Of a DNA stretch of 64,000 nucleotides, positions 25,144 through 46,233 are shown one piece after another. The stretch comes from a virus. Taxonomy: Duplodnaviria; Caudoviricetes. The DNA lies in the IMG/VR virus record IMGVR_UViG_2912649904_000001, positions 1 through 64,000 of that record. The stretch is one strand, 5' to 3'. The translations under genes and the position numbers were made by a program. Under the pieces are notes generated by a model. The model made no database searches, was not told the origin of the DNA, and was given only the letters and a program-made list of their open reading frames with translations. Each line of letters opens with the position of its first letter. Within the stretch, counting starts at the first letter, position 1.

Positions 25144-25343
25144 GCGGTGGGTTCGGCGCCGCAGAGTCTGACGGTCGTTCATCACCTGTCCATTGGGGGG
25201 TGTACGGGGCCGTCTGCGGCCCGGCCCTCGGAAACCAGGCCGCAGACGGGGACAAGGGGCCGCTACGTCGTCGTGCTGTGGGTTGACGTCTGGGGCGGCG
25301 TACAGGATGCCGATCGCGCGACCGGAGCTACACGGGGTGGTGG

Positions 25344-25847
25344 TCAGCCCTCCGAGTGCTTCTGTCGATGGTGGGTGTTACGGCCCCGCTTGGTGGCGAA
25401 CCGGCGGCTGCATCGGTCGCAGGGAAAGCCGCTGCCCTGGGTGGGTAGAGGTGCCGGCCTTGGGCTGGGCAGAGCGGCGATAACGTCGGACGGCGGCTCG
25501 GTGGGCAGCGGCGCCGGGGCAGCGCATCCGGCGGGTGCAGCGATGACGTGGGGTGGCTCCGGTTCGGCCGTGTGCTGTTCGGCTGCGTGCTCGGCCAGGC
25601 CCTCGGCGGTGGCCACGCCGAGCAGGTCGGAGGGCGGTGGAGCACCGGCGGCGTCGTCCTCGCTCACTGGCCTGTATCGGTAGCCGTCGACCTCGGCGCC
25701 GATGAGTACGGATTCGGGCATGTCGGGGAACAGGCGGGCGGGGACCGCGAAGGTGTTGGGCCCGGCCGTGCGGACCTTCGGGCTCTGGGCGACCGCCCAC
25801 GCCGCGAGCGGCTGCCGCTGCTCGGGCGCAGGGCGCACGTGAATCAT
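25344..25847 (-). CDS. Head-region protein with C-terminal C2H2 zinc finger
   Basis: FPCDRCSRRFATKRGRNTHHRQKH. Confidence 0.7.
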   Translation of the reverse strand: MIHVRPAPEQRQPLAAWAVAQSPKVRTAGPNTFAVPARLFPDMPESVLIGAEVDGYRYRPVSEDDAAGAPPPSDLLGVATAEGLAEHAAEQHTAEPEPPHVIAAPAGCAAPAPLPTEPPSDVIAALPSPRPAPLPTQGSGFPCDRCSRRFATKRGRNTHHRQKHSEG

Positions 25848-25862
25848 CTCGGCAAGCTCTCC

Positions 25863-26726: not shown

Positions 26727-26749
26727 GTGCTCAGCTCCTTCGGTATGGG

Positions 26750-26787
26750 GCGGTGGGCCGGCGCCACCCGAAGCACCGGCCCACCGC
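26750..26787 (-). terminator. Strong hairpin between the two capsid genes
   Basis: GCGGTGGGCCGG..CCGGCCCACCGC inverted repeat. Confidence 0.6.
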
Positions 26788-26804
26788 GGTCTGGGTGCTG
26801 GACG

Positions 26805-28439: not shown

Positions 28440-28472
28440 GAAAGCCGGGCCTCCGGTGTCGCTTCGTGGAGT

Positions 28473-28542
28473 GCCCGGCCCAGAACCAGCGGCTTTGCGG
28501 GGCGGCCCGGCAATGGCCGGACGGCCGCCCCGCATCAGTTTA
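28473..28542 (-). promoter_or_regulatory. Late-gene leader motif with inserted hairpin and TAAACT -10
   Basis: GCCCGGCCCAGAACCAGC 28473-28490; stem 28496-28534; agttta 28537-28542. Confidence 0.65.
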
Positions 28543-28586
28543 GCCCGAACCGTTCACGCTGCTCGGGCATGTGTCAAGCCGCGCTG

Positions 28587-28814
28587 TCAGGCGCGGTTGA
28601 CGGTCTTCGTCGTCGTGCTCGTCGTCCTGGCGGTGGTGTTCGCCGAGGCGCTGGTGGTGCTGTCGCCCGGCTTGGCCTTCGGCCTCACGGACGAGCCTTT
28701 GTAGCGCTTCGATACTGCGTTCGCGGTCGGCTGTGACCCGGAAGTGAACACGACCTTCCCGGCCTCGGTGACAACCTCGAACTGTTCGCGCTTCCCCTTG
28801 CAGGCACAGGGCAT
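28587..28814 (-). CDS. Small basic head-region protein (MPCACK..)
   Basis: Start overlaps the upstream stop; AAGGAG RBS. Confidence 0.7.
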   Translation of the reverse strand: MPCACKGKREQFEVVTEAGKVVFTSGSQPTANAVSKRYKGSSVRPKAKPGDSTTSASANTTARTTSTTTKTVNRA

Positions 28815-32602: not shown

Positions 32603-32834
32603 GGTTGATCCTCCTCACCGGTAGCGGGCTGTCGGGGTCGTCGCAGATTTCGCACCACGTCCAGATGCCGACGGTGGCGACACCGCCGGGGCTGAGCAGC
32701 AGCAGCGGTGTGGTGATCTGCGTCCACGCCTTGCAGTCCGCGCACCAGCCCGTCACCAAAGTTCCGGCGTGCAGGGACAAGTCCCCGCCGGTTGGGGCCT
32801 GTAGCGGCAGCTGAGGGCCGCGGGGCCCGGTCAC
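32595..32834 (-). CDS. Small Zn-ribbon protein
   Basis: WCADC..WCEIC; GTGA overlap with the portal stop. Confidence 0.6.
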   Translation of the reverse strand: MTGPRGPQLPLQAPTGGDLSLHAGTLVTGWCADCKAWTQITTPLLLLSPGGVATVGIWTWCEICDDPDSPLPVRRINRA

Positions 32835-34567
32835 TGGGCGCCGCCGACACACGAGGTGAGGACGGTCGACACCAGCCGGTATTCGTGCTCGATGCCGGCC
32901 GCGATCAGCTCCCGGGCGTAGTTGTCGAGCGACGCGGTCAGGCACTCGACGTCGAGGCCGTAGCGGATGGCGATCTCGGGGGCGCGGGACCAGGCGCCAT
33001 CGAGGAGCCGCCACTGTTCGACCTGCGTGGGCTCGACCGGGAGCAGCGTGTGCAGGCGGGCTGAGTCGACGTCGCGGGCCTTCGCGCGCTCACTGCGGGG
33101 GCAGGCGGGCGTCTTCCGCAGCTTCTCCCCGGCGGCGGTCAGCGCGCACCAGATCAGACCGTCCGCGGCGGCGAGGAGCCCGTCACTGGCGCCAACCGTG
33201 GCCGAGGCGGGCAGGGTGTCCGGCTCTGCCTCCGTCTCGTCGACGGGCAAGTCGGGCCCGCCGGGCGCCTCCTCGGTGTCGTCGGCGTTCTCGTCCTGGT
33301 CGTCGTTGTTGGTCTGCTGCTCGGCTTCGGTGGGGGCGTCGCTGTCGTCGAAGCCGGTCTCGCGGCGGAGGGCGTCGGCGGAGATAGCGCGTCGGTCGAA
33401 GACCTGCAACGCGGTCTCCGACCTGTTCGTACGGACGCGGAGTGGGCTGGTGTCGTACCAGACGAGCCAGCGGTGCCAATCCGGATCGCCTTCGGATTCG
33501 AGAATGGGGCGGAGCCACTGCTGCGTGAGGGCGTAGGAGACCGTCCGCAGCTTCGGTTCGATGCCCAGGCGGATCGCCTCGGAGGTGAGTGCCCAGGCGC
33601 CCCAGTGGTTCACGTCGCCGAGTCCGAGCAGGATCTCGGCGGGGATCTCAAGGCCGGTCGCGAAGCGTCGCACGGCCTCTTCCCGCAGCTTGAGCGCGAG
33701 TTCGTCAAACTGCGACTCGAAGGTGATGTGCTTGAACTCGGCGATGGTGTCCGGCGGCAGCTCCAGCACGATCGGCACCGTCGCGGCGGCGCTCTCGGGG
33801 TCGCGGATCGCGGTTTCGGCGATCGTCATGAAAATCTCGATCAGGTCGTCCTCGCCTGATCCCTGCTGCTGTGACGACGGGAACCGTGTGCCCTTGGGGA
33901 CGAGGAGCAGTCCCCGGCCGGTGATCCTGCTGCGGGCGATGGCCTTCACAGCGGCGTTGAGGAGGAGCAGTTCCTCCAGAAGCTCCAGCGACGACCTGAC
34001 CGGGCTGTCGGCGTCGATGGACCGCTCGGGGTCCGGCTCCCACACGCGGAGCGCCACCGGCCCGTCGGGGTCCATCGTGTCGGGGTCGCCCTCGGGGATC
34101 GGGACGTCTTCGCCGTCGATCTCCGCTGTGAGCTTGCCTTGCTGCTGGCGGACCTCGCGTACGGACAGGACACGCCAGTCGTGGCCGTCTTCCGGCGCGT
34201 ACGGCGAGAGGACTTCGGCGTTGGGGCGAATGACGATCCAGCCCTCGCCGGGCACGGTCAGGTGTTTCCCGAACTGACCGAGCATCTTGGCCTGTCCGTC
34301 GGCGCCTCCGGCGATCTGGTCGACGATCTCGGCTGCGCGGTGGCCGGCCGGGGCCGGGTCGATCGAGCCGTCATCGTCCCGCCTGCCCGCGTAGAGGCGG
34401 GCGCCGGACATGGCGTTGCCGATCCACGAGGCGGCGAACCGCACTTCGGGGACCTGGTGGTACATGTCGTAGGCGCGGTGCTGCCATGACTGGTCGCCGG
34501 AGCCTTTCCCTCGGATCTTCCTGGAGGTGTAGCGGGATGCGGCGGCGACGATCTCCTTACGCGGCAT
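32831..34567 (-). CDS. Portal protein
   Basis: WQHRAYDMY..PEVRF, LREEAVRRFATGLEIPAEIL, NHWGAW. Confidence 0.88.
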   Translation of the reverse strand: MPRKEIVAAASRYTSRKIRGKGSGDQSWQHRAYDMYHQVPEVRFAASWIGNAMSGARLYAGRRDDDGSIDPAPAGHRAAEIVDQIAGGADGQAKMLGQFGKHLTVPGEGWIVIRPNAEVLSPYAPEDGHDWRVLSVREVRQQQGKLTAEIDGEDVPIPEGDPDTMDPDGPVALRVWEPDPERSIDADSPVRSSLELLEELLLLNAAVKAIARSRITGRGLLLVPKGTRFPSSQQQGSGEDDLIEIFMTIAETAIRDPESAAATVPIVLELPPDTIAEFKHITFESQFDELALKLREEAVRRFATGLEIPAEILLGLGDVNHWGAWALTSEAIRLGIEPKLRTVSYALTQQWLRPILESEGDPDWHRWLVWYDTSPLRVRTNRSETALQVFDRRAISADALRRETGFDDSDAPTEAEQQTNNDDQDENADDTEEAPGGPDLPVDETEAEPDTLPASATVGASDGLLAAADGLIWCALTAAGEKLRKTPACPRSERAKARDVDSARLHTLLPVEPTQVEQWRLLDGAWSRAPEIAIRYGLDVECLTASLDNYARELIAAGIEHEYRLVSTVLTSCVGGAQ

Positions 34568-34905
34568 CAGCCGTCAGCCTTCCGCTCGTCGTCCCAGCGG
34601 TTGAGGAGGACGGCGGCTCCGGCGACGGCCAGCCACTCGACGCCGTGCACGAGGACCGGGGCGTCCGGCCAGGCGTCGTTCACCAGCAGCCAGGTCGCGA
34701 GGAGCGCGCCAGAGATCCACCAACCCATGCAGTAGACGCAGGAGATCAGCGTCACGACGAACGCGCGCACCTTGGCTTCGGGCTGGGCCTCGTGCCAGGC
34801 GAAGATCCGGTCACGAAGCGGATCGAGGATCGTGTCATGGACCGCGAGCTGCGTGCCGCGGTACCCGGCCAGGGCCAGGAGGGCGAGTTCGGGGAGTTGG
34901 AGCAC
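34567..34905 (-). CDS. DUF1360-like membrane protein
   Basis: YRGTQL..DTILDPLR, LISCVYCMGWW. Confidence 0.8.
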   Translation of the reverse strand: MLQLPELALLALAGYRGTQLAVHDTILDPLRDRIFAWHEAQPEAKVRAFVVTLISCVYCMGWWISGALLATWLLVNDAWPDAPVLVHGVEWLAVAGAAVLLNRWDDERKADG

Positions 34906-35070
34906 TGCCGCCCCCTATGCGGAGATCATCCGGGCAACGTCAGCGGGTGATGATAGACCACCTCGCAGACCCTCCCCCGGCGTAATTTCCGCAGGCCAGA
35001 CCGCATTTTTAGATCACGCTGGAGGTGTATCGGCCCCCGGCGGGCGGAAGGCGGGGCAGCGGGGGCAAGG

Positions 35071-35334
35071 TCAGAACAGGGCCCACGCATCCTCAGCCTG
35101 ACCGCGCTGCGGTGTCTCGTCATCGGAGACATCGTCAAGTTCGAGCTGATGAGCGGGCGGCGGCAGCTCGACGACGTTTAGGGAGCCGGGACACGACACC
35201 AGTGGCCCGTCCGGGGAGCGCAAAGCCCCGGGGTCGTCGTGCCGCCACAAGCGGCCCATGGAGAGACGACCGGCGACCGGTCCTGCCGCGGTGGGTCGGC
35301 CGCAGCTCGGGCACAGGACACGGGGCAGCTTCAT
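35071..35334 (-). CDS. Small Zn-binding hypothetical protein
   Basis: CPSC..WRHD..SCPGS. Confidence 0.6.
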   Translation of the reverse strand: MKLPRVLCPSCGRPTAAGPVAGRLSMGRLWRHDDPGALRSPDGPLVSCPGSLNVVELPPPAHQLELDDVSDDETPQRGQAEDAWALF

Positions 35335-35568
35335 GGTGCCCAGTGTGGCGCGCCCAGACAGCGGACGTACGCACTTCCCGGCCACAGCGGTCAGCCTGGA
35401 TTGGCAGCCAACCTGCTACTGCTGGAGGTTGCAGGCTCGCGTGCTCGTCTCGTCGAGTACCGAGGCAGTCGGCGGCCACCAGGCTGCCCCTGACCACGGT
35501 TCGCGCCCCTTCGTCCATACTCGTTGGCCGCCGCAGCGAGGACGGCAGGCGGCTCGTATGCTCCAGGG

Positions 35569-35859
35569 GTGTATGAGTTCCCGCAAGACCTGGTCGAAGC
35601 GTCCCGCACCTGCCGGAAGCTGACCGCCCGCATTGACGAGCTCCCATACCGGGCAGTCACACTCGCCGACGGGACGCCGGTGGAGCGGCGCCGCCCAGCA
35701 ATCGACTACGACCAGGCGCTTGAGGACGAGTTGGCCGAGCTGCGCCGCGAACGGCTCGCCGCAGCGGTGGACGTGGTCACGCACACGTTCTGGGTGTCGG
35801 TGGACGCCGGGGACCGGACTACCGCGCGAACCGCGCTCCACGAGGCTGTTCGAAGCTGA
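35569..35859 (+). CDS. Hypothetical protein (probably leaderless)
   Basis: TATGCT 6 nt before GTG; YEFPQDL..HTFW. Confidence 0.65.
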   Translation: MYEFPQDLVEASRTCRKLTARIDELPYRAVTLADGTPVERRRPAIDYDQALEDELAELRRERLAAAVDVVTHTFWVSVDAGDRTTARTALHEAVRS

Positions 35860-36029
35860 GCCGAAATTCCCCTCCCTGTCTGCGGACCTTCTGTGACGAT
35901 CGATCGCAAGTCGTCAGGCTCAGGGGGTAGTTCGTTGATCACGCTCGGCGTAGTGGGCGGTGATCGCCCCCTCGATGCGTGAGCATATGGCTTTCGCGCG
36001 TTCGTCGGCGGCTCGCTACGGTCGTCGCC

Positions 36030-36842
36030 ATGGGCGAAGGGCGATGGCAAAAGCGAGGCGGGAAAGTCCTCTACGAAGGCGGGCCACAAAACCGGATCCG
36101 GCTCACTGTCGACACCGCAGTCCGGCCGGACGGGGCCACGGTGGATTATCCGTACGTCGCGGCGCCGGACTCGGTGCGTGTGCTGGCGGTGCATCAGGGG
36201 CAGGTTGCGGCGGTGACCCAGCACCACTACCTCCACGACGCGCAGATCACTGACCTGCCCGGAGGTTACGTCGACGAGGGGGAAGATCCGGCCGCTGCCG
36301 CCCTCCGGGAGCTGGAGGAGGAGACCGGTCTCCGGGCTGCCTGGCTGCACCCGCTTGGCGCGGTGGCTACTGCTCGTGCGACCAGCGCCGAGAAAGCTCA
36401 CCTCTTCCTCGCGTACGGCTGTACCGAGGGGCCCGTCTCGCTGGATGCGGGCGAGTCAGTGCGTTGCTCGTGGCTGACGTGGCCAGACTTGACCGAGATT
36501 GATCTCGCAATACCGGTCGCGCTACCTCAACCCTTGGCTGACGCGGCATCGTTGGCCGCGATCGAGAGGGCACGGGCGCTGCTGCGGGCTGTGGGCGGAG
36601 ACCTTCCAGCCGCCCGAGACGACCTCCCTAGCGCTGCTTCGGCGGCGTCTACGGTGGCTGCGCTCCGCTGCCCGTTCGCGGACGACCGCCTCAGCCTGGT
36701 CTGGATGGACCTGGCGGTGGGCCGGACTGCGGAGGGTGCCGCGATCCTGGCTGAGCTAAAAGGGGCGTATGACGGGCCGCGGGCGGACGGTGCGTGGCAG
36801 CACGCGGCCGACCGGTTCTCGGATCTGGCGCGGCGTTCGTAA
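36030..36842 (+). CDS. Nudix hydrolase with C-terminal extension
   Basis: LPGGYVDEGEDPAAAALRELEEETG Nudix box. Confidence 0.9.
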   Translation: MGEGRWQKRGGKVLYEGGPQNRIRLTVDTAVRPDGATVDYPYVAAPDSVRVLAVHQGQVAAVTQHHYLHDAQITDLPGGYVDEGEDPAAAALRELEEETGLRAAWLHPLGAVATARATSAEKAHLFLAYGCTEGPVSLDAGESVRCSWLTWPDLTEIDLAIPVALPQPLADAASLAAIERARALLRAVGGDLPAARDDLPSAASAASTVAALRCPFADDRLSLVWMDLAVGRTAEGAAILAELKGAYDGPRADGAWQHAADRFSDLARRS

Positions 36843-36940
36843 GCCTGCCGCTGATCACACCGAGGAGTATCGCCGCCCACCATCTCGGCCAGCGTCTTGC
36901 GCAGTCACGTCGATACGTCATCGCGGCAGTGTCGCATCGG

Positions 36941-38524
36941 TCACTTGCTGATGCGGCGGCCGTACAGCCCGGCGGAGGACGGTGTTTGCCGCCCGGCGGT
37001 GGGCTGCGGGGCGGTTGGGAGCGGGGCGTGGACGATCGCGCCGCGGTTCGCCTCGGGGATCAGGCCGTACACGAGGATGCACGAGGCGTCGATCCGGCCC
37101 GGTGAGTCCGGGTCGGTCGGCTGCCAGGTCGCCCACTCGTTCTCCAGATCGGCGAACGCGCCGCGAAGGCGCACCCGGTCCTGGACCATCTGTTGCGCCA
37201 CGGGCTCGGCCCTGAGCAGCTTGCCTTGCTTGGCGCGCACGGGGTCGATCAGCGGCATCAGGTGGCTCTCGGGAATGGCGCCTTCGCGTTGGAGCGTTTC
37301 CCACGACGTCTCCAGGGCGAGGACGGCCATGTCTCTGCCGAAGTTCCACTCGACGTAGATGATCGCCGCGTTCGTCTCATAGGCGAGCAGGCAGGCTGTC
37401 TTGGACCACTCGGCCGACGACATGGGCGCCGATCGGTCGTGGGTGATCCAGACGCGCTTGTCGTCGCCGAGGAAGCCACTGACGACGCCGGCGGTGTCCC
37501 GGCCGCCGCCCGAGGGATCGATCGCGACGGCGATCTTCTGCGGCTCGACCTTCGTGGACCCGTCCCGGATGAGCCGCAGCAGGTCGCGTGATACCAGCGC
37601 GCCTTCGGACGGCTGCGGGTCGCCCTGCGCCATGGCGTGCCAGTCCCGGACGCTGGACGTCTTCTTGACGTCCGCCCACCACGCCAGGAGCTGCTTCCGC
37701 TGCCTTGTGGGGATCTTCGGGTGCGGCAGCGGCTCCCCGTCCTGGCGGCCGAGCGGGTCGGGGCCGAACTTGCTGGGGTTGGCGATGGCGGGCAGGTGGA
37801 CGACCGCCCACCGGCCGCCGTCCTCCAGGCGGCCTTCATCCTCCAGGCGCCGGCCGGAGAAGTCGTCGGGGTGCCAGCGGGTCTGGATCGCCACCACGGC
37901 GTTCCGGTCCGGCTGCAACCGCTTGAGTGCGGCCGAGCTCCACCAGTCGTGGACTTGCTCCCGCAGCCGGGCCGACTCGGCTTCGCTGCGGTCCTTGTGC
38001 GGGTCGTCGACGACGAGGAGGTTCACCGGGAAGCCGGTGAGGCCCGAGCCAATTGACACGCTGCGGACGCCGCCGCCCTTCGTGGTGTCGTAGTCCTGCG
38101 CGGCCGACGAGCCTGCGAGGAGCGCCAGGTCGTACTCGCCGCCGTGCTCGGCGATGTACCGGCGAATCGCCTTGCCTCGCCGCATCGCCAGGTCGTCGCT
38201 GTAGGACGTGACGGCGACACGGTCCTCGGGGTGGAGGCACAGCCACCAGAACGGAAACCATTCGGCGACCGTCGTGCTCTTGCCGACCTGGCTCGGCGTG
38301 AACACCATCAACCGGTCGTAGTCGCCGCGCTCCAGGCCCACCAGGGCCTCGCTGATGACCCGCAGGTGCGGGCGCATCCGGAACGAACCATCGAGGCCCC
38401 GGGCAAGGGTGACCGGGTCACGCAGGAGGTCCTGCCCGATCGCTCGCTCGGCGGCCTGGAGCCGCTGATACACCTCGGCGTCCTCCAGATGCTCAAGGCC
38501 GGTGGCGTTTATCACCGCGGTCAT
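36941..38524 (-). CDS. terL: Terminase large subunit
   Basis: Walker A PSQVGKST, Walker B LLVVDDPHKD, nuclease AIDPS..DSPGRIDA. Confidence 0.95.
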   Translation of the reverse strand: MTAVINATGLEHLEDAEVYQRLQAAERAIGQDLLRDPVTLARGLDGSFRMRPHLRVISEALVGLERGDYDRLMVFTPSQVGKSTTVAEWFPFWWLCLHPEDRVAVTSYSDDLAMRRGKAIRRYIAEHGGEYDLALLAGSSAAQDYDTTKGGGVRSVSIGSGLTGFPVNLLVVDDPHKDRSEAESARLREQVHDWWSSAALKRLQPDRNAVVAIQTRWHPDDFSGRRLEDEGRLEDGGRWAVVHLPAIANPSKFGPDPLGRQDGEPLPHPKIPTRQRKQLLAWWADVKKTSSVRDWHAMAQGDPQPSEGALVSRDLLRLIRDGSTKVEPQKIAVAIDPSGGGRDTAGVVSGFLGDDKRVWITHDRSAPMSSAEWSKTACLLAYETNAAIIYVEWNFGRDMAVLALETSWETLQREGAIPESHLMPLIDPVRAKQGKLLRAEPVAQQMVQDRVRLRGAFADLENEWATWQPTDPDSPGRIDASCILVYGLIPEANRGAIVHAPLPTAPQPTAGRQTPSSAGLYGRRISK

Positions 38525-39147
38525 GGGGTCTCGCTCTCGTCATCGTCGTCGGCGGGGCCGTCTTCCTCATCGTCGCCGTCGACCGCGCGGACGCGGCGGG
38601 ACACCGACGCCGCGAGGCCAGCCAGGCGTACCCGCCGCTGCTCCGGCGGCATCTGCGCGAACTCGGCGAGCTGCACCGCGAGCGGGTTCCCGCCGGTGCC
38701 GGTGACCGCGATCGTCGCCGCCGGGTCACCGAAGAGGACGCGCCGGTGCCGCATGGCCACGTCCAGGAGCCGGATGAAATCGCCGACGGACATCGACCCG
38801 GCGTCGAGGGTGCCGAGGCGTTGCGCCAACTTGCCCACCGCCGCGCCCAAGATCCGTGCGTCGGTCTCGGCCGCCTTGCGCCGCTCCTCGACCCAGCCGG
38901 CCTCGTACAGCCGGTCCAGGTGTCGGTCCCACGAGTCGGCGCGCTCGCGCCACCGGTAGGTCGCCGCCGCCTTCCGGACCGTCACCGGGTGAAGCTGTAG
39001 CCCCTCCGCAGCCTTCTGTAGGGTCCGCGTGCGCCCGAGATCGCGGTAGGTGACGAACTGGCCGTGCTTGCGGGCAGTCTCGTCGGGTTGCTGCTCCCAG
39101 GGGTCCAGGGTTGGACTGAGGCTGATGGGGGGCTTGTTGGCGCTCAC
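38521..39147 (-). CDS. terS: Terminase small subunit
   Basis: PWEQQPDET..F..YRDLG..W.ERADSWD; ATGA overlap with terL. Confidence 0.8.
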   Translation of the reverse strand: MSANKPPISLSPTLDPWEQQPDETARKHGQFVTYRDLGRTRTLQKAAEGLQLHPVTVRKAAATYRWRERADSWDRHLDRLYEAGWVEERRKAAETDARILGAAVGKLAQRLGTLDAGSMSVGDFIRLLDVAMRHRRVLFGDPAATIAVTGTGGNPLAVQLAEFAQMPPEQRRVRLAGLAASVSRRVRAVDGDDEEDGPADDDDESETP

Positions 39148-39153
39148 GGTGGC

Positions 39154-40050
39154 CTACGCAGGGGTGTCGAGGTACTGGTTGGCCCACAGCTCCAGTGCCT
39201 TGTACCGGTGCTCTGCGGGGACATCGCCACGGGCTACAGCCTGCTGGAGGGCTTTCTCGACGATCGCGGCGGACTTCGTGGGCATCGCGTCGGTGTGGAA
39301 CAGGGTGAGGAGCGGGGCCATGCCGTGATGCTTGGGCTCCCCCGTGTCCCGGTCGAACCAGGCGTCGACGAGTTCGGCGGCGTGGTCCTTGAAGCTCTCC
39401 AGGATGAGGCCGAAGGCGGTGGCGACGTTGGTGACGTCGCTGCTCTTGGAGGCGAGGTCGAGGGCAGCCATGGTCTGGTCGTACTGGCGGAGAGCGGCGA
39501 CCCAGACGGCGTCGGATGAGGAGGCGAGGCCGAGGGCGTCGCGGATGACGTCCTGGGCGTCCTTGAGGTCGTCGGGGAGGAACACGATCGCGAGGGTCTG
39601 GAAGCTCAGGTTGGCCTCGCCGAGGCTGGGGCTGTCGAGGTCGGCGAGGAGTTCCAGGGTGGCGTCGTCGAGTCCAGCGTACTGGCGGAGGTCGAGGTCT
39701 TCGATCTTCTCGTAGAGGGTCTTGAGGATCGCCAGATCGTCTTCCCCGGCGATCGAGTTGTGCGAGAGCTGGATGGCGAGGCGCTGCGACTCGGTGAGCA
39801 GGTCGGAGGTCTCTAGCCAGGTGATCTCTTCGATTCCGGCCTCGATGGCGGCCTTCGTGCGGTGGTTACCGGAGAGGACGATCCGCTCGCCGGACCCGAT
39901 GTCGTGCCAGACGAACGGGGTGGAGGTCAGGGCTTCGTCGCGGCGGACGTTCGCGACGAGCTGCTGATACTGCTCGTGCCGCATGTAGCGCGCGTTCAGG
40001 TCGAGGAGCTTCAGCGAGCGGGGGTCGCCGGTGCGGATCTCGGTCTTCAC
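39154..40050 (-). CDS. ParB/Srx N-terminal-domain protein of a DNA-modification locus
   Basis: NARYM..LVANV..IVLSGNHRTKAA; GTGA-coupled to the upstream methylase-like gene. Confidence 0.85.
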   Translation of the reverse strand: MKTEIRTGDPRSLKLLDLNARYMRHEQYQQLVANVRRDEALTSTPFVWHDIGSGERIVLSGNHRTKAAIEAGIEEITWLETSDLLTESQRLAIQLSHNSIAGEDDLAILKTLYEKIEDLDLRQYAGLDDATLELLADLDSPSLGEANLSFQTLAIVFLPDDLKDAQDVIRDALGLASSSDAVWVAALRQYDQTMAALDLASKSSDVTNVATAFGLILESFKDHAAELVDAWFDRDTGEPKHHGMAPLLTLFHTDAMPTKSAAIVEKALQQAVARGDVPAEHRYKALELWANQYLDTPA

Positions 40051-41459
40051 TTCTTCACGTCCTTGCCGTATCGCTTCTTCCACTCGCGCAGGACCTCGGC
40101 GAGCGGCTTGCCAGAGAATGCGGCTCCGTACTGGAGCTGGTACTGCTGGGCGTAGTACGAGTCGGTCGGGTCGATGCCCTTCGCCCAGTCCTCCTTGAGG
40201 ACGTCTTTCTGATCACGCTTCAGGAGGCGGAGCACGCCGCGGTACTTCATCGACACCGGGCGCTTCGTGAAAGCGGTGGTGGCGAGCGACTGGTAGCGGC
40301 GATGTCCGTGCCGCCAGGTGAGGAGCTGCGCTTCGCGGCTGATCGCGGCCATGACGATCAGCTTCGACAGCTTGGCGTAGCGGCTGGTGGAGACCGGGAA
40401 GTCGGACAGCATGTAGACGGTGGGCTGCTGAGGCAGGTGCGCGCCCCAGTTCCCGAGGGTCGGTGCCCACGAGTACGCGAACACGCCGACCAACTTCCCG
40501 TCGACGAGGACTGCGACGCCGAGCGATTCGGAGCCGGGGCGGATGTTGGCGTTCATGTACGCCGAGCGGAGCGCTGCGAACTGGCCTCCGCTGAGGACGG
40601 CGAGGCTGATCCTGTCGCCGATCTCCTCGTCGCCGAGGTGAGGGCCGGGCCACGCCTCGGTCTTCTGACGGGGCTCGACCAGGCGCATCGGCCCTGAGTT
40701 CGCGTAGACGTAGATCGGGATGCCGCGGTTCGTCGTCCTGGTCCGGCCGCGCAGGAACGGCGCCATCTCGGGGACCTCCTCGTTGGTGCCGAGGAGCCAG
40801 TGGTCCCGGTCGGTGATCCGTTGGATCAGGTACTCAAGCTCGGGGTCCTCCATGATCGTGAACTCGGGCGGCGTCCACTCGAACATCTCCTCCAGCTTGG
40901 CGAAGTCGCGGACGAACGCCGCGCCGGCGCCGTGGAACGGCGGGTAGGACACGACGCCAGCGCCAGGCGGGATCTTGTCGACCCAGGTCAGGGCGTCCTC
41001 GGCGCTGTAGGAGGCAAGCTTGAGGACTTCGGCCGCTGCGGTGACCTTCGCGACGGTCTTGGCGTGCAGGTCGGGCCACTGCTGCTCGTATGCCTTGCGC
41101 ATCTTCGACCAGTAGACGTGCGATTCGTTCTTGCCCATGAGCGGGGCGAGGCGCGTGCACAGCAGCATCGTGGCGAGCTGTTCGGCCGGGGTGTCGTGGC
41201 GCTCCAGCGCCCACGGGAACTCGGCCTCGGCGGTTGGGGTGAAGACGAGCGGCATCGGGTCGTCGGCGAGGTACCGGCCGATTGCGGTCGAGTACATGAG
41301 CACGTCGCAGGAGTGGAGGTCTTTCCCCAGCGACGCGAGGGTCTTCTCGACGGTGAAGTTCCCGCAGCACACGTTGTAGACGTCGGTCACGTCGGTCCAC
41401 AGGGAGACGTGCTCTCGGACGATTCGGCACATGTCGCTGGGGATCGAGCCGTGGAACAT
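40047..41459 (-). CDS. DAM-like adenine methyltransferase fold fused to a GNAT-like C-terminal domain
   Basis: VYNVCCGNFTVE (motif I-like), SYPPF (motif IV variant); C-terminal VLVDGKLVGVFAY..LSKLIV..SMKYRG. GNAT call is from recall of similar phage proteins. Confidence 0.7.
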   Translation of the reverse strand: MFHGSIPSDMCRIVREHVSLWTDVTDVYNVCCGNFTVEKTLASLGKDLHSCDVLMYSTAIGRYLADDPMPLVFTPTAEAEFPWALERHDTPAEQLATMLLCTRLAPLMGKNESHVYWSKMRKAYEQQWPDLHAKTVAKVTAAAEVLKLASYSAEDALTWVDKIPPGAGVVSYPPFHGAGAAFVRDFAKLEEMFEWTPPEFTIMEDPELEYLIQRITDRDHWLLGTNEEVPEMAPFLRGRTRTTNRGIPIYVYANSGPMRLVEPRQKTEAWPGPHLGDEEIGDRISLAVLSGGQFAALRSAYMNANIRPGSESLGVAVLVDGKLVGVFAYSWAPTLGNWGAHLPQQPTVYMLSDFPVSTSRYAKLSKLIVMAAISREAQLLTWRHGHRRYQSLATTAFTKRPVSMKYRGVLRLLKRDQKDVLKEDWAKGIDPTDSYYAQQYQLQYGAAFSGKPLAEVLREWKKRYGKDVKK

Positions 41460-41576
41460 GGCTGGCTCCCTGGTGGTTCTGGCGGGGCCGGGCGGTGCAT
41501 CCGGCCGGGCGGGGATGGTAGCCGACCAGTGACGGACCGTGTCCGCGTCGCCGCAGGCCAAGGAGGGCCTAACAAC

Positions 41577-41606
41577 GGGGAAGCCCCCCGGCTGCGGAGG
41601 GCTTCC
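41577..41606 (-). terminator. Hairpin directly after the tRNA CCA end
   Basis: GGAAGCCCTCCG-CAGC-CGGGGGGCTTCC followed by CCGTTGTT on the minus strand. Confidence 0.7.
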
Positions 41607-41611
41607 TCTTC

Positions 41612-41686
41612 TGGAGCGCCGGCCAGGATTCGCACCTGGACCTCCCGCCCGGAAGGCGGATGTGCTGCTGTTGCTACCACCGGCGC
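41612..41686 (-). tRNA. Atypical tRNA-Gly(TCC)
   Basis: GCGCCGG TG GTAGCAACAGCAGCAC A TCCGC CTTCCGG GCGGG AGGT CCAGG TGCGAAT CCTGG CCGGCGC T CCA: 7-bp acceptor stem, TCC anticodon, U73, encoded CCA. Confidence 0.88.
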
Positions 41687-41808
41687 ACTACGGTCGGCCG
41701 CGCCGCTGCTCAGGACGGCCGATCGCAGAGAGGGATGATACACACACTCTCAGCAATCACATCTGCGCGCGGTGGAGGGCTGCAATCGCGGGCTGCACCT
41801 AGGCCCGG

Positions 41809-42395
41809 CTACGCCCGTCGGGCGGCGCCACCGCGTTCCCTCTTTCCGCCAGCACGGAATCCGTGCATCGACTGCCCTTCGCGGCGGGCCGCCCGGGATG
41901 CTGACTCCCGACTCAACGCCTCGCCGCGCGAGTTCAGCAGGAGTGGACCTGCGTCGCGTCCAGCCATGGCGGCGCGGACCAGATCGTCCGCCTTGCCGGA
42001 GAGCGGGACCGCGCGCTGCCCCGGCCGCGAATATCCTCCGCAGTGGCGGTCTTCCCCTCGGGGTCGATGTCGCGGACGTCGAGGGAGAGGGCTTCGGCCA
42101 GCCGGAGTTCGCTCTCCCACATCAACGCCCACAGTGCCCGGTGCGCGGCAGGGATCGACTCGTCGGCGATGAGGCGCCGGTACTCTTCGGGGCTCACCTC
42201 AAGTTGCGGAAGGTCGGTGCGGTGCCCCTTGCCGGGCATGCACTGGCGGGCGGCCTCGGCGGCAGCCCTGTCGTACCTCATGGCTCCGGTGTCGGGGTCG
42301 CGGTCGATCGCATCGACGGGGGCGAGGACACGGCGCGCGGCGGCGGCGCTCAGGCCCCAGCGCTGGGCGCATTCTCGGACAGTGGTCAACTCCAT
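41809..42395 (-). pseudogene. Frameshifted, truncated tyrosine-recombinase-like gene with N-terminal HTH
   Basis: RALWALMWESELRLAEALSLDVRDID in one frame, RAVPLS..GPLL..MHGFR in the next; break near 42030; no C-terminal Tyr. Confidence 0.7.
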
Positions 42396-42827: not shown

Positions 42828-43754
42828 TCAGGCGCCGACGGGTTCGATGGCGTCGGCGGCGCAGTCCGGGCACTGCTGCCGGTAGGTACACGGCCTGTGC
42901 GCGCCGCGGCGACCGTTGCAGTGCACGCAGTTGCCGGGGTGGTGGGCGTGGCCTGCCAATAGGTTCAGCGCCTCGCTGAGGGTCGAGGCACCGAGGACAC
43001 GGATACCGTCGACCTCGCGGGCCTCGGGCACGTTCGCGTCCGGGACTAGGACGACCGGGGCTCCGGCGTCGGCAGCGGCCCGCACCAGGTCGCGAATGTC
43101 GCGGACCGACCGCAGCTTGCCATCCAGGCCGAGTTCCCCGATCAGCACGAGCCCGGCCAGCGCCGAAGCGGCGAGTTGCCCGGTCGCGGCGAGCACCGCG
43201 CACGCGAAAGCCAGGTCAAGGCTGCTGCCACCGGGCTCGTCGCCGAGCGCGACGACGCCCACCGTGACATTCGACTGGTTCCAGGTCAGGCCGCTGTTCA
43301 CCATCCCTGCGCGCACTCGGTCGCGAGTCTCGATGCGGTTCCGCTCGCGCACCCCGAACACGTTGAAGTTCGGCACGCCCGGGGTGCTGGTGCCCTCCAG
43401 CCGGTACACGGTGGCCCCGGCGACGGCGAGCGCTTCGGCGCTGCCGTACGGCTCGATGGCCGGGGCGGCGTCGCCGAGGGGGCCGTACGCCTCCATGTTG
43501 CTGTCCGGGCTCAGCCCGTAGTTGTCGACGCCGCTGCGCTCGCGCAGGTGGGCAACGTGCTGGTCGACGGCCGCGCGGGCGCTGGCGGCCCACATGGTGG
43601 TGACCTCGCCGAAGGCGTCCATGGCCTCGACGCCGATCTCTTCGAGTGCGATGGCGCACTTCGTGGCGTCGGTCGGCGCGGGGGCGACGTCCCACAGGGT
43701 GTAGCTGCTGCCTTGGTCCTGGCCGACGATGATGTACTCGCGGGTCTCGCTCAT
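42828..43754 (-). CDS. Fusion protein containing a ComM/YifB N-terminal (Lon-C-like) domain
   Basis: ETRDRVRAGMVNSG, GSSLDLA, IGELGLDGKLRSV, VLVPDANVPEA; no ATPase domain. Confidence 0.8.
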   Translation of the reverse strand: MSETREYIIVGQDQGSSYTLWDVAPAPTDATKCAIALEEIGVEAMDAFGEVTTMWAASARAAVDQHVAHLRERSGVDNYGLSPDSNMEAYGPLGDAAPAIEPYGSAEALAVAGATVYRLEGTSTPGVPNFNVFGVRERNRIETRDRVRAGMVNSGLTWNQSNVTVGVVALGDEPGGSSLDLAFACAVLAATGQLAASALAGLVLIGELGLDGKLRSVRDIRDLVRAAADAGAPVVLVPDANVPEAREVDGIRVLGASTLSEALNLLAGHAHHPGNCVHCNGRRGAHRPCTYRQQCPDCAADAIEPVGA

Positions 43755-43774
43755 GGCGTTGCCCTTCCGGCTGG

Positions 43775-44281
43775 TCACTGGGCGTCGGTGAGGTCGAAGT
43801 GCGCGCCGAGCGCTTCGATCTGCTCGGTCTGGGTGCGGCTGAGGGCGTCGCCGGGGTCGCCGCAGGTGCGGTACAGGTCGACGGCGGAGCGCAGGACACC
43901 GAGGACGCCAAGGACGTCGAGGGGTTCGAGCACGGACACGGGACCGGCCAGCGTCGTCTCGGGCGTAACCAACTCGCGCTGGACGTCGACTAGGTCGCGG
44001 CAGCGGAAGATGCGGAGGCCGTAGGCCAACTCGCCGATGCTCGACTCTTCCTCCCGGACGTAACGGACGATTGTCCAATCCGGAGAGCGCCCAGCGGCCA
44101 TGCGGAAGATGGCCTGGGCCGTGGGGTGGTCCTCGCCGAACATGGCGGCGGGGTCGTCCTCGTCGTTCCAGACGTCGAGAACTTCCCGCCATTCGCCGTC
44201 GATCAGGGCGGTGTCGGTGTCTTCAAGGTCGGCCGCGCGGACCGAGTCGGCGGTCCAGGTGGATCGGGTCGGGGTGCTCAC
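43775..44281 (-). CDS. Hypothetical protein
   Basis: GGAGG RBS before GTG; acidic protein-like ORF. Confidence 0.7.
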   Translation of the reverse strand: MSTPTRSTWTADSVRAADLEDTDTALIDGEWREVLDVWNDEDDPAAMFGEDHPTAQAIFRMAAGRSPDWTIVRYVREEESSIGELAYGLRIFRCRDLVDVQRELVTPETTLAGPVSVLEPLDVLGVLGVLRSAVDLYRTCGDPGDALSRTQTEQIEALGAHFDLTDAQ

Positions 44282-44484: not shown

Positions 44485-46233
44485 TCAGGCGGTCAGGGCC
44501 AGGGAGAGCGGGCCACGCCCCTCGGCGAACCGGGACAGCTCCTCGCCGGTGATCGCCTCGACCAATGCGCAGTACAGGTTCTCGGCGACGCCCGGGGTGA
44601 CCGCGTTGCCGAGCTGGCGCACCTGATGCCGCTTCGAGCCCATGATCTTGTAGCCCGGCCGGAAGGCCATCGCCCGTGCGATCTCGTGGGGCTGCAACAT
44701 CCTGAACAGGACGTCGTCGATGTTGAACTCGCCCTTCACCAGGGCGTATCGGTCGCGGGTCGGCAGAGCGCCGATCGGCTCGCTGAGTTCCCGGGCCCGG
44801 CCGTTGCCGTAGTACGGGACCAGCAGATGGTCAGGCGCGGCCACCAGACCGTGATGGTTACCGCCAGCCGACACTGTGTGGAGCGGGGCGCTGACGTGCC
44901 GGGCTTTCTCCTTGTCGCCGCCGCCGCGCATGGGGATCACGAAGGGCGGCAGATGAGCGAGGGCGGTCTCCAGGCGGGCCGTCTGGGTGCGCAGCGGGTC
45001 GCCCAAACTCATGGGCTTCTTGCCGTCGCGTCCCTCACAGGGGACCAGGAAGGGCGGGACCACGACGCCGTCGGTCTCGACTGTTGTGCGGGTCGACATC
45101 GGCCGGTCGAGGGTGACAGCCTTGTCCCGCCAGGTACCGCCGGTCGGAACGAGGAGCGGGCCGGGGGCGGCCTGCGGGGCGTCATCCACGTCTCCGAACA
45201 GCGTTTCCTGTCCGTCGTTCGCCTGCGCTCCCCAGCCCCAGAACTGGGCGAACCCGGCACGGGTCCGCGCGATCGTGGCCGGGGCCAACCCCTCGGGGCA
45301 CTCTTCCGTCTTCGGGCGGTCGCCGATCGGCGTCCCGGGTAGCGACCAGTCGATCGCGGCAGCCGCAGGGAGCACCATGGGCTCAACGACTGCGCGGCAG
45401 GCCTTGCGGGGGCACCTGTAGTCGTAGCTCTGGCGATACCTGCCCATGTCCTTGCCCGGCTTGCGGAAGACCTGGACGGCCTCAACCTTCTCGTCGCAGT
45501 CGAAGCAGAAAGCCGCCGGGCGCAGGATCCACTTGTCCCACTGGGGCGTGCGGCCGATGCTCCTGTGGATGTAGGCGACGTACAGCCGGTCTCGGCTCTG
45601 CGGGATGTGGTCGAGGCTGCGCGGGTCGACGTGCATTGAGTTGATCGCGAAGACCCACGTGGCGTAGTTCATCTTGTCGAACTCGGCCATCCAGCGGTCC
45701 CAGTCGTCCCAGTCGCGGCAGTCGATGACGTTCTCGACAACACCCGCCTTGACCAGGCCGCCTCGGGCGATCACACCGCGCAGGTACATGGGGACTTCTT
45801 CCATGAGGGCGCGCGAGCGCTCCTCTGCCGCCCGCCGCTCCTTGTCGCTCTTGAACTCGGGCTCGTCGAAGTCAATCTGACCCTGGAGCGTCTTGTCGAA
45901 GTCGCGCTTCACGCCCCGCGCCGCCGACCACTTGGGGCACTCCGGGCTGGCCCAGAAGATGTCGCACACCGGCCAGCGTTCGACGGGGGCCCGGCGAATG
46001 TCACCCTTCCAGACCTCGCAACGCGGGTTGTTCCACGCGTGCGTCGCGAGGGCCACGTCCCAGTGGTTCGCGGCCCTGGTGACCTGGACGTTGGGGACGG
46101 CGTCCGCGCCCTGCGTGTCGCCGCCAGCTCCGCAGAACCAACTCATGACGGTGAGTTCGCTGCCGTCGTGCTTGTAGGCGCGGGCCGGTCTGCCTGCGGC
46201 CCATGCCTGGGTGGTGGAGTCGATATAGGGCAC
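44485..46233 (-). CDS. DNA (cytosine-5) methyltransferase
   Basis: FCGAGG, ASPEC, VENV, PQSRDR, QLGNAV. Confidence 0.95.
   Translation of the reverse strand: MPYIDSTTQAWAAGRPARAYKHDGSELTVMSWFCGAGGDTQGADAVPNVQVTRAANHWDVALATHAWNNPRCEVWKGDIRRAPVERWPVCDIFWASPECPKWSAARGVKRDFDKTLQGQIDFDEPEFKSDKERRAAEERSRALMEEVPMYLRGVIARGGLVKAGVVENVIDCRDWDDWDRWMAEFDKMNYATWVFAINSMHVDPRSLDHIPQSRDRLYVAYIHRSIGRTPQWDKWILRPAAFCFDCDEKVEAVQVFRKPGKDMGRYRQSYDYRCPRKACRAVVEPMVLPAAAAIDWSLPGTPIGDRPKTEECPEGLAPATIARTRAGFAQFWGWGAQANDGQETLFGDVDDAPQAAPGPLLVPTGGTWRDKAVTLDRPMSTRTTVETDGVVVPPFLVPCEGRDGKKPMSLGDPLRTQTARLETALAHLPPFVIPMRGGGDKEKARHVSAPLHTVSAGGNHHGLVAAPDHLLVPYYGNGRARELSEPIGALPTRDRYALVKGEFNIDDVLFRMLQPHEIARAMAFRPGYKIMGSKRHQVRQLGNAVTPGVAENLYCALVEAITGEELSRFAEGRGPLSLALTA

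What the first reader, a model, noticed from the sequence alone, without database searches (positions are those of the whole stretch)
41612..41686. tRNA-Gly keeps charging determinants but has hallmarks of non-proteinogenic tRNAs
Seen: the GlyRS identity set is intact (G1-C72, C2-G71, G3-C70, U73, C35C36, encoded CCA) and the acceptor, anticodon and T stems pair fully. The D-loop lacks G18G19, the T-loop reads GUGC instead of GUUC, and pair 51-63 is A-U. Known: staphylococcal cell-wall tRNA-Gly species show loss of the D-loop GG, GUGC in the T-loop and weak EF-Tu determinants such as A51-U63. Inference: this is selected escape from EF-Tu and the ribosome rather than random decay. It has its own 3' hairpin and a TATCAT hexamer upstream (41736-41741).
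Basis: partly seen in the sequence, partly recalled or inferred. Interest (0 to 1): 0.85.

Follow-up and report, generated by a model that had tools for sequence, protein, structure and literature searches.

The report
Phage's private glycine tRNA gene
An odd glycine tRNA gene inside a prophage sits directly in front of a two-part enzyme gene, a pairing repeated in many phages, so it probably carries glycine for modifying the phage's DNA and not for making protein, though no experiment has tested this.

Summary
It lies inside a prophage, 152 nt upstream of a Dam-like (PF22555) + GNAT-like (PF22559) fusion gene. A ParB-like gene and the terminase genes follow. The host keeps a full canonical tRNA-Gly set, so this one is an extra.

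- **Linkage:** of 148 evaluable related loci, 74 carry a tRNA-Gly-like gene on the same strand just upstream. Among 80 phage Mu Mom-family control loci, none does.
- **Selection, not decay:** across 72 distinct family tRNAs the cloverleaf covaries (98.4% of cells paired). G1-C72, C2-G71, G3-C70, U73 and C36 are invariant, and C35 is kept in 71.
- **Translation features erode:** U33 is kept in only 43 of 72, position 34 varies freely, and UUC in the T loop is kept in 49.
- **EF-Tu:** a published T-stem model predicts weak binding.

Best reading: a dedicated glycyl donor for tRNA-dependent DNA modification, analogous to Mom. This rests on inference only. The enzyme shares Mom's fold but is not in its family.

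I found nothing in print. The scan has flagged the same system in at least 14 other genomes.

The parts
41612..41686 (-). Atypical tRNA-Gly(UCC) with encoded CCA. It carries the full glycine identity set, G55 in the T loop, no GG in the D loop, a bulged D stem, possible C32-G38 pairing, and T-stem pairs C49-G65, C50-G64, A51-U63.
   Evidence: ARAGORN. Rfam tRNA model 43.5 bits. Family model R1 76.5 bits. Sequence read.
41579..41606 (-). GC-rich hairpin (12-bp stem, 4-nt loop) starting 6 nt after the CCA. It could be a terminator, an attenuator or a processing signal between the tRNA and the enzyme gene.
   Evidence: Fold of 41540-41700. Not called by the consensus terminator scan because it has no T-run.
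41735..41740 (-). TATCAT hexamer 48 nt upstream of the tRNA 5' end. It resembles a -10 element but is unsupported.
   Evidence: Sequence. No sigma-70-type promoter called.
40047..41459 (-). 470-aa fusion protein: an N-terminal Dam-like fold whose motif IV reads (Y/F)PPF, joined to a C-terminal GNAT fold. It is the presumed partner of the tRNA.
   Evidence: Pfam PF22555 (E 1.2e-99) and PF22559 (E 1.5e-55). phrog_7858. AlphaFold models with pLDDT 84.5 and 89.4. Fold searches. Motif columns.
39154..40083 (-). ParB-like (ParB-N/nuclease-type) gene that always follows the fusion gene.
   Evidence: phrog_7405, E 9e-61, plus ParB-like families. Found downstream in 148 of 148 related loci by tblastn.
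36941..39147 (-). Small (38521-39147) and large (36941-38524) terminase subunit genes directly downstream. They place the module at the head of the packaging genes of a prophage.
   Evidence: phrog_6299, phrog_38. Portal gene at 32831-34567, phrog_776.

Best explanation
This is a prophage-encoded accessory tRNA-Gly that belongs to a conserved phage module: tRNA-Gly, then a Dam-like/GNAT fusion enzyme, then a ParB-like protein, ahead of the terminase genes.

Proposed mechanism, with every step inferred:
1. The tRNA is transcribed with or just before the enzyme gene and processed. Its CCA is encoded.
2. The host glycyl-tRNA synthetase charges it, because the glycine identity set is intact.
3. 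Its weak T-stem triplet, altered elbow (G55, no G18G19) and unusual anticodon loop keep most of it away from EF-Tu and the ribosome.
4. The GNAT half of the fusion enzyme takes the glycyl group from it. The Dam-like half lacks the usual catalytic residue of motif IV. It holds a flipped adenine in double-stranded DNA, so glycine is put on N6, as Mom of phage Mu does with host Gly-tRNA-Gly.
5. The modified phage DNA would then resist host restriction.

The shown parts are the gene, its features, the synteny and the pattern of conservation. Charging, exclusion from translation, glycyl transfer and the DNA target are inferred.
For: **Context**
- The fusion gene starts 152 nt downstream on the same strand in a prophage packaging region.
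- The host has canonical tRNA-Gly GCC x3, UCC x1 and CCC x1 elsewhere. The window tRNA is only 37/72 identical to the host UCC gene.

**Linkage**
- Of 153 distinct related loci, 148 had enough upstream DNA to evaluate. 74 have a tRNA-Gly-like gene on the same strand within 500 nt upstream (median gap 113 nt), 3 have one on the opposite strand, and 2 have one elsewhere in the locus.
- Every tRNA that ARAGORN found in the 167 fetched loci was Gly or NCC-like.
- The loci include isolated phages. Megabear has an annotated tRNA-Gly abutting the gene. Soos has a copy seen only by my model.
- On a 149-protein tree the tRNA occurs in both major halves. 52 of the 74 tRNA-less rows fall in one Streptomycetaceae clade.
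- Control: 0 of 80 Mom-family loci have any tRNA.
- It is the only tRNA found in 4 of 5 whole records checked.

**Selection pattern in 72 distinct sequences**
- Invariant: pairs 1-72, 2-71, 3-70, plus U73 and C36. C35 is kept in 71.
- Position 34 is U in 35, C in 22, A in 14 and G in 1.
- U33 is kept in only 43. A purine at 37 is kept in 50. C32+G38 occurs in 63.
- The D-loop GG is kept in 34 and the T-loop UUC in 49.
- By contrast, among the 80 other ARAGORN predictions in the host genome, 77 have U33 and 78 have GG.

**EF-Tu model**
- Window -9.2 kcal/mol, host tRNA-Gly -11.2, family median -9.6.
- 0 of 63 computable family members reach the published bacterial Gly-UCC mean of -10.8. The staphylococcal non-proteogenic tRNA is at -9.5.

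**Precedent and fold**
- Mom transfers glycine from Gly-tRNA-Gly to N6 of adenine in dsDNA (PMC13219725: abstract and sections 13, 14).
- Mom (8bv8) is the top VIA-align match of the GNAT-domain model among 48,161 chains: Z 11.2, rmsd 3.5, 150 residues aligned.
- Motif IV of the Dam-like half is (Y/F)PPF in 26 of 26 sequences.
Against: - There are no expression, charging, EF-Tu or DNA-modification data. No RNA run was available.
- The window's copy keeps U33, UCC, G37 and a 7-nt loop, so it could still decode.
- Its bulged D stem is absent from its closest relatives and might be damage in a resident prophage.
- 69 of 148 evaluable loci have no tRNA nearby, so the enzyme does not need a private tRNA.
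- The enzyme is not a Mom-family member. Mom hits PF25680 and this protein hits PF22559, with no cross hit. hhalign probabilities are 0.4% and 3.4%.
- Mom's structural lead over generic GNATs is under 1 Z unit, and it ranks 35th by Foldseek E-value. The donor could therefore be an acyl-CoA, and the acceptor need not be DNA.
- The invariant acceptor end may reflect recognition by the synthetase, by the transferase, or by both.
- The EF-Tu figures come from an additive model built on Thermus and E. coli data, which I refitted from one table.
Confidence: 0.6

Rival explanations
1. It is an ordinary phage-encoded tRNA used in translation. It would supply GGA/GGG decoding or replace host tRNA-Gly attacked by a tRNA-targeting defence. 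Its position beside the enzyme gene would be historical.
For: The window's copy has a normal-length anticodon loop with U33, UCC and a purine at 37, and a complete cloverleaf. GGA+GGG make up 32.8% of glycine codons in the window's frames against 27.4% in the rest of the genome. From my own knowledge, not checked here: phage tRNAs with altered anticodon loops are known.
Against: - GGA alone is 10.2% against 9.4%. The packaging-side genes at 25000-41700 show no excess: 26.7% against 27.4% for GGA+GGG.
- It is the only tRNA found in 4 of 5 whole records checked, and where present it is always Gly and always beside this gene.
- Near-identical family tRNAs differ at position 34, including A34.
- 29 of 72 lack U33, and 5 have 6- or 8-nt loops.
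- Predicted EF-Tu affinity is about 2 kcal/mol weaker than for the host's tRNA-Gly.
Confidence: 0.17
2. The tRNA is functionally tied to the enzyme but is not a glycyl donor for DNA. It could be the enzyme's substrate, as with GNAT toxins such as TacT that acetylate Gly-tRNA-Gly. It could be a decoy or regulator. It could also be a cis-acting processing signal that sets the 5' end of the enzyme's mRNA.
For: GNAT enzymes that act on charged tRNA exist, and TacT reads U73 and G71 (passage in PMC9976931). The fold search cannot separate Mom from CoA-using GNATs. A hairpin and 152 nt separate the tRNA from the gene.
Against: C35, C36 and U73 are kept in 71-72 of 72 sequences, which points to aminoacylation and not mere processing. 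The fused Dam-like DNA-adenine fold and the constant ParB-like partner point to DNA as the target. The closest solved fold is Mom.
Confidence: 0.15
3. It is a decaying pseudogene, an attachment-site remnant, or a replacement for a host tRNA destroyed by integration (tRNA-dependent lysogeny).
For: This copy has an irregular D stem. A small ORF with a weak integrase-like hit (E 0.0008, below the Pfam cut-off) lies just upstream at 41934-42395. tRNA-dependent lysogeny exists in actinophages (PMC10865867, table passage).
Against: - The stems covary across the family.
- The gene lies inside the prophage, between replication/regulation genes and the packaging genes.
- It is internal in the complete genomes of Megabear and Soos.
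- The host keeps intact canonical tRNA-Gly genes of all three anticodons.
Confidence: 0.04

Closest known systems
Mom of bacteriophage Mu (Pfam PF25680; PDB 8bv8; Silva et al., Nat Commun 2026, PMC13219725)
   Same: Both are phage enzymes with a GNAT fold. Mom takes glycine from Gly-tRNA-Gly and puts it on N6 of adenine in dsDNA, which then rearranges to 6-NcmdA (abstract and sections 13, 14 read). Mom is the best VIA-align match of the GNAT-domain model. Both genes sit with late or packaging functions.
   Different: - The Pfam families differ (PF22559 here), with no detectable sequence homology.
- Here the GNAT domain is fused to a Dam-like domain. I did not test whether it carries Mom's HTH-like insertion.
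- Mom uses all host isoacceptors, and the paper's main text names no phage-encoded tRNA.
- 0 of 80 Mom-family loci carry a tRNA.
- The chemistry here is untested.
Non-proteogenic tRNA-Gly (NP1-NP3) of Staphylococcus aureus and S. epidermidis, glycine donors for FmhB/FemA/FemB
   Same: Both are extra tRNA-Gly(UCC) genes beside a canonical set. Both have UGC in place of UUC in the T loop, A51-U63 and a weak predicted T-stem triplet, and both serve (here presumably) a GNAT-fold aminoacyl transferase outside translation (PMC7826273 passages; PMC3239215).
   Different: - This one is viral, not chromosomal.
- The partner is a Dam-like/GNAT fusion, not a Fem transferase.
- The other two T-stem pairs differ: C-G and C-G here, A-U and U-A there.
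- The staphylococcal tRNAs form a lineage reported as confined to staphylococci.
- Their weak EF-Tu and ribosome binding was measured. Here it is only predicted.
Ordinary phage-encoded tRNAs, and tRNA-dependent lysogeny (PMC10865867)
   Same: Both are tRNA genes carried by actinobacteriophages and prophages.
   Different: Here the gene is a single tRNA, always glycine, with a fixed position beside one enzyme gene and eroded decoding features. The host tRNA set is intact.

Membership tests
tRNA (Rfam RF00005) of glycine identity | Cloverleaf that scores above the family's gathering score | tested here: met
   43.5 bits against 29. The host's canonical tRNA-Gly genes score 71.0-71.8.
tRNA (Rfam RF00005) of glycine identity | Bacterial GlyRS identity set: G1-C72, C2-G71, (G3-C70), U73, C35, C36 (as listed in PMC9976931) | tested here: met
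   All are present in the window tRNA. They are invariant in 72 family sequences, except C35 at 71 of 72.
Staphylococcal non-proteogenic tRNA-Gly | UGC or UGU in place of UUC in the T loop | tested here: met
   The T loop begins UGC. Feature as described in PMC7826273. In the family, only 10 of 72 have UGC and 49 keep UUC.
Staphylococcal non-proteogenic tRNA-Gly | Weak EF-Tu T-stem triplet A49-U65, U50-A64, A51-U63 | tested here: inconclusive
   Only A51-U63 is shared. The triplet here is C-G, C-G, A-U. It is predicted to be even weaker (-9.2 against -9.5 kcal/mol) by an additive model refitted from Table 3 of PMC3239215. Nothing was measured.
Staphylococcal non-proteogenic tRNA-Gly | Partner is a Fem-family peptidoglycan transferase, and the lineage is confined to staphylococci | tested here: not met
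   The neighbour is PF22555+PF22559 in a prophage of a high-GC actinobacterium. I did not compare the sequence with the staphylococcal tRNAs.
Staphylococcal non-proteogenic tRNA-Gly | Measured poor binding to EF-Tu and to ribosomes | not testable with these tools
   Needs bench assays.
Mom family (PF25680) | Match to the Mom family profile | tested here: not met
   Mu Mom hits PF25680 (E 2.4e-75). The window's C-terminal domain hits only PF22559. Neither cross-hits at E <= 1. hhalign probabilities are 0.4% and 3.4%.
Mom family (PF25680) | GNAT fold | tested here: met
   Foldseek returns many GNATs with probability 1.00. In VIA-align, Mom 8bv8_B ranks 1 with Z 11.2, tied within 1 Z unit with other GNATs.
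Mom family (PF25680) | Essential residues R111, S124, D149, R151, and the HTH-like insertion at about residues 175-209 | tested here: inconclusive
   No reliable residue-level alignment could be made. The insertion was not examined. A fused Dam-like domain is present here.
Mom family (PF25680) | Uses Gly-tRNA-Gly to modify N6 of adenine in dsDNA | not testable with these tools
   Needs biochemistry. Only synteny with a tRNA-Gly supports it.
N6-adenine DNA methyltransferase (Dam-like) | Dam-like fold or profile | tested here: met
   PF22555, E 1.2e-99, covering profile positions 1-274 of 274.
N6-adenine DNA methyltransferase (Dam-like) | Motif IV (D/N/S)PP(Y/F/W). The motif definition is recalled, not from a call. 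| tested here: not met
   The column before PPF is Y in 20 and F in 6 of 26 sequences, and never D, N or S.
Replacement tRNA of tRNA-dependent lysogeny | Integration destroys a host tRNA of the same identity | tested here: not met
   The host keeps canonical tRNA-Gly UCC, CCC and three GCC genes, each scoring 71 bits or more.

The most novel reading that the evidence does not exclude
Many phages of Actinomycetota and Bacillota encode a translation-excluded glycine tRNA. It is a private carrier that host GlyRS charges and that a Dam-fold/GNAT fusion enzyme unloads onto adenines of the phage's own DNA. This would be the first virus-encoded non-proteinogenic tRNA, and the first case of a DNA-modifying enzyme that brings its own donor tRNA. 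Position 34 and the anticodon loop would be free to drift because only the synthetase and the transferase read the molecule.
Probability: 0.45. Interest if true: 0.9.

Novelty: new variant of a known kind. Interest (0 to 1): 0.8.

Why it matters
Dedicated non-translational tRNAs were said in 2021 to be known only from staphylococci (PMC7826273, discussion passage). tRNA-dependent DNA modification was shown only in 2023-2026, for Mom, which scavenges host tRNA.

A phage module that pairs a DNA-modifying acyltransferase with its own donor tRNA would join these two lines.
- It would explain a recurrent 'orphan' tRNA-Gly in actinophage genomes that annotators call translational or miss altogether.
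- It offers a natural experiment on which tRNA features matter to a synthetase but not to EF-Tu and the ribosome.
- It can be tested directly, because isolated phages with the module exist (Megabear and Soos, on Mycobacterium smegmatis and Gordonia).

Tried and rejected
**Sequence homology to Mom**
- The PDB profile search with the fusion alignment gave one chance-level hit (E 0.74) and no Mom.
- hhalign against Mu Mom gave probability 0.4%, and against an 18-member Mom alignment 3.4%.
- NCBIfam gave nothing for the fusion or the ParB-like protein.

**Signals and expression**
- The promoter and terminator consensus scans of 41300-42100 found 0 sites.
- Expression: no RNA holder listed.

**Codon-supply idea.** It has little support.

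**Minihelix idea**
- The tRNA-less Streptomycetaceae clade has a conserved GC hairpin where the tRNA would be.
- Its first three pairs vary and the stem runs on past the would-be discriminator, so I dropped the idea that it is a reduced glycine acceptor.

**Leads from earlier scan notes**
- A similar RNA beside true Mom genes: not seen in 80 loci 69-99% identical to Mu Mom. More distant Mom relatives were not examined.
- Kits with Lys or Arg tRNAs: not seen in the 167 loci or the 29. Every tRNA found there was Gly-like.

**Reaching more distant relatives**
- The representative search listed only its best 150 of 807.
- P0374 found nothing in viral contigs.
- P0370 gave 29 loci, 25 of them new. 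Five of the new ones (L258, L259, L270, L275, L276) have a tRNA-Gly-like gene upstream.
- P0279's extra length matched parts of terminase and portal genes of other phages, which looks like an inserted element. It told me nothing about the tRNA.

**Other limits**
- Complex prediction was not used because it takes no RNA.
- Supplements of PMC13219725 were not opened. Its similarity network and homologue tables could hold neighbourhood data that bear on novelty.

**Searches behind 'not in print'**
-.
- Word searches inside PMC13219725 and inside the 2023 preprint.

Full report
**The observation**

ARAGORN finds a single tRNA in the window, tRNA-Gly(tcc) at 41612-41686 on the minus strand. Rfam's tRNA model matches it at 43.5 bits against a gathering score of 29.

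- G1-C72, C2-G71, G3-C70, U73 and an encoded CCA.
- Anticodon loop CUUCCGG.
- Fully paired acceptor, anticodon (one U-G pair) and T stems.
- No GG in the D loop.
- T loop UGCGAAU, so G55 stands where the universal U is.
- T-stem pairs C49-G65, C50-G64, A51-U63.

The 3' hairpin exists, with a 12-bp stem at 41579-41606. TATCAT lies at 41735-41740, one base off the stated place. Neither is called by the consensus scans.

**It is an extra gene, and an atypical one**

The genome is one 7.89-Mb contig. It has canonical tRNA-Gly genes with anticodons GCC (three copies), UCC and CCC. All five score 71.0-71.8 bits with the Rfam model. Three further ARAGORN 'Gly' calls have broken stems, and I take them for false positives. 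The window tRNA is identical to the host UCC gene at 37 of 72 aligned positions.

**Context**

The tRNA lies in a prophage. On the same strand, 152 nt downstream, starts a 470-aa gene with Pfam domains PF22555 (Dam-like, E 1.2e-99) and PF22559 (phage GNAT-like, E 1.5e-55). It is followed by a ParB-like gene, the small and large terminase subunits and the portal gene. Further phage genes lie on both sides.

The literature search turned up Silva et al. (PMC13219725). I read its abstract, discussion and structure section. Mom of phage Mu is a GNAT-fold enzyme that moves glycine from Gly-tRNA-Gly onto N6 of adenine in dsDNA. Mom uses any host isoacceptor. The main text names no phage-encoded tRNA, no fusion and no methyltransferase.

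**Is the pairing conserved?**

The fusion protein has relatives in 15 isolated phage records: 10 Mycobacterium and 5 Gordonia.
- Megabear has an annotated tRNA-Gly(tcc) abutting the gene.
- Soos has none annotated and none by ARAGORN. Its intergenic spacer nevertheless holds a tRNA-like stretch with the same acceptor end, a CCC anticodon with C33, and an 8-nt T loop. My covariance model finds it at 55.2 bits.

With an alignment of 26 proteins I fetched the best 80 of 541 viral stretches and the best 80 of 292 genome stretches. Every tRNA that ARAGORN found in the 167 loci was Gly or had an NCC-like odd anticodon. A model built from 66 of them was run over all loci.

After removing duplicates there are 153 distinct loci:

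| Class | Loci |
|---|---|
| tRNA-Gly-like gene on the same strand within 500 nt upstream (median gap 113 nt) | 74 |
| One on the opposite strand | 3 |
| One elsewhere in the locus | 2 |
| None | 69 |
| Too little upstream DNA to evaluate | 5 |

Further observations on the linkage:
- On a FastTree of 149 proteins, the tRNA occurs in both halves of the tree, among phages of Bacillota and of Actinomycetota. At least 13 gains or losses are needed. 52 of the 74 tRNA-less rows fall in one Streptomycetaceae clade, whose sister has the tRNA.
- Among 25 further, more distant loci, 5 have it.
- The ParB-like gene follows in 148 of 148 loci.
- As a control, 80 Mom-family loci (224 kb) hold no tRNA by ARAGORN or by my model.
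- Five whole records were checked. The family tRNA is the only tRNA found in four of them. The Rfam screen finds it and nothing else in two. It finds nothing in Megabear and Soos, whose family tRNA was seen only by ARAGORN or by my model. The fifth record holds one other tRNA.
- In the host's genus the GNAT-like domain is found in 8 of 151 genomes, as expected of a mobile element.

**What is conserved in the RNA?**

On 66 sequences, 98.4% of cells pair. 17 of 21 pairs show changes on both sides, and slid controls pair at about 40%.

In 72 distinct same-strand sequences, the window's included:
- Pairs 1-72, 2-71 and 3-70, plus U73, C36 and G53-C61, never vary. C35 is kept in 71.
- Position 34 is U in 35, C in 22, A in 14 and G in 1.
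- U33 is kept in 43, and a purine at 37 in 50.
- C32 with G38 occurs in 63.
- The D-loop GG is kept in 34 and the T-loop UUC in 49 (UGC in 10, UCC in 4).
- Five have anticodon loops of 6 or 8 nt.

CCA follows U73 in 47 of 71. For comparison, among the 80 other ARAGORN predictions of the host genome, false positives included, 77 have U33, 76 a purine at 37 and 78 a GG. Of 13 family loci tested with Rfam's tRNA model, 9 gave no match at E <= 0.01.

So selection keeps the cloverleaf and exactly the set that bacterial GlyRS reads (PMC9976931 passage). It lets go of features needed by the ribosome and the elbow.

**EF-Tu**

PMC7826273 and PMC3239215 (passages and one section read) make three points:
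- The first three T-stem pairs set EF-Tu affinity.
- Proteogenic tRNA-Gly carries G49-U65, C50-G64 (or U-A) and G51-C63.
- The staphylococcal non-proteogenic tRNAs carry A-U, U-A, A-U and bind weakly.

An additive fit to the 30 rows of Table 3 of PMC3239215 reproduces them exactly. It gives -11.2 kcal/mol for the host's tRNA-Gly triplet, -9.2 for the window tRNA and -9.5 for the staphylococcal one. The family median is -9.6. None of the 63 computable members reaches the published Gly-UCC mean of -10.8. This is a prediction from a model, not a measurement.

**The enzyme**

AlphaFold models are confident: pLDDT 84.5 for the whole protein and 89.4 for the GNAT domain. Foldseek returns many GNATs, with Mom at rank 6 for the whole protein and rank 35 for the domain. 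VIA-align over 48,161 chains puts Mom 8bv8_B first (Z 11.2, rmsd 3.5, 150 residues aligned), but within one Z unit of other GNATs.

By sequence it is not a Mom. The Pfam families differ with no cross hit, and hhalign is not significant. The Dam-like half has (Y/F)PPF where adenine methyltransferases have (D/N/S)PP(Y/F/W), in 26 of 26 sequences (the motif definition is recalled). This fits a domain that holds a flipped adenine and does not methylate it.

**Reading and rivals**

I take the tRNA to be a private glycyl donor for this enzyme, with confidence 0.6.
- The translational-tRNA rival (0.17) is weakened by the fixed synteny, the free position 34, the loss of U33 in relatives, the weak T stem and flat codon usage. 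It is not excluded for this particular copy.
- A role as substrate, decoy or processing signal (0.15) cannot be ruled out without biochemistry.
- Decay, an attachment-site remnant or tRNA-dependent lysogeny (0.04; PMC10865867) is contradicted by the covariation, the internal position and the intact host set.
- Half the loci lack the tRNA, so it is an accessory. Those phages presumably use host tRNA-Gly, as Mu does.

**Novelty**

My searches, and word searches inside the two Mom papers, found no report of this module or of a phage-encoded non-proteinogenic tRNA. Supplements were not read.

Earlier notes of this scan describe the same module in this genome and in at least 14 other genomes. They agree with my reading. 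I count them as leads, not as evidence. Two of their claims, a similar RNA beside true Mom genes and kits with Lys or Arg tRNAs, were not reproduced in the loci I examined.

Noticed in passing
window 39154-40083 (-), and all related loci: A ParB-like (ParB-N/nuclease-type) gene follows the fusion gene in 148 of 148 loci. The constant unit is therefore enzyme plus ParB-like protein. Its role in the presumed modification is unknown.
   Followed up: partly
L119:1400-1500 and about 50 related Streptomycetaceae loci (for example L124, L131, L164): The tRNA-less clade has, in place of the tRNA, a conserved promoter-like stretch and a long GC hairpin in the 5' leader of the fusion gene. Its first pairs vary, so it is not a glycine minihelix. 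It may be a regulatory hairpin.
   Followed up: partly
L026:1271-1419, L092:1272-1420, L042:1282-1427, L038:1261-1421, L258:1162-1317, L259:1155-1317: Some phages carry two tandem family tRNAs upstream of the enzyme gene, in some cases with different anticodons (CCC then ACC).
   Followed up: no
L032:1364-1434, L063:151-222, L086:1231-1301 (minus strand): In three loci a canonical-looking tRNA-Gly (GG in the D loop, UUCGA T loop, U33, A37) lies divergently next to the fusion gene instead of the atypical same-strand one. It could be a host attachment-site tRNA or a different arrangement.
   Followed up: no
L276:1201-1272: A distant relative's upstream tRNA has an ACC anticodon, an A3-U70 pair and discriminator A instead of U. 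This departs from the otherwise invariant acceptor end.
   Followed up: no
window 28814-32614 (-): A 1266-aa protein with a Mu F-like head domain, plus weak hits below the Pfam cut-offs to a 2'-5' RNA ligase/2H family and an AbiEi-type HTH. It may be a virion protein carrying extra effector-like domains.
   Followed up: no
window 42828-44192 (-) and 44485-46233 (-): Upstream of the tRNA lie a protein with a ChlI/ComM-type domain and no phage-family match, and a C5-cytosine DNA methyltransferase. The prophage therefore carries more than one DNA-modification function.
   Followed up: no
protein P0279 (712 aa) and similar long homologues (P0290, P0294): Some homologues are about 250 residues longer. 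The extra segment (residues 173-444) matches parts of terminase and portal genes of unrelated phages, which suggests an inserted intein-like element.
   Followed up: no
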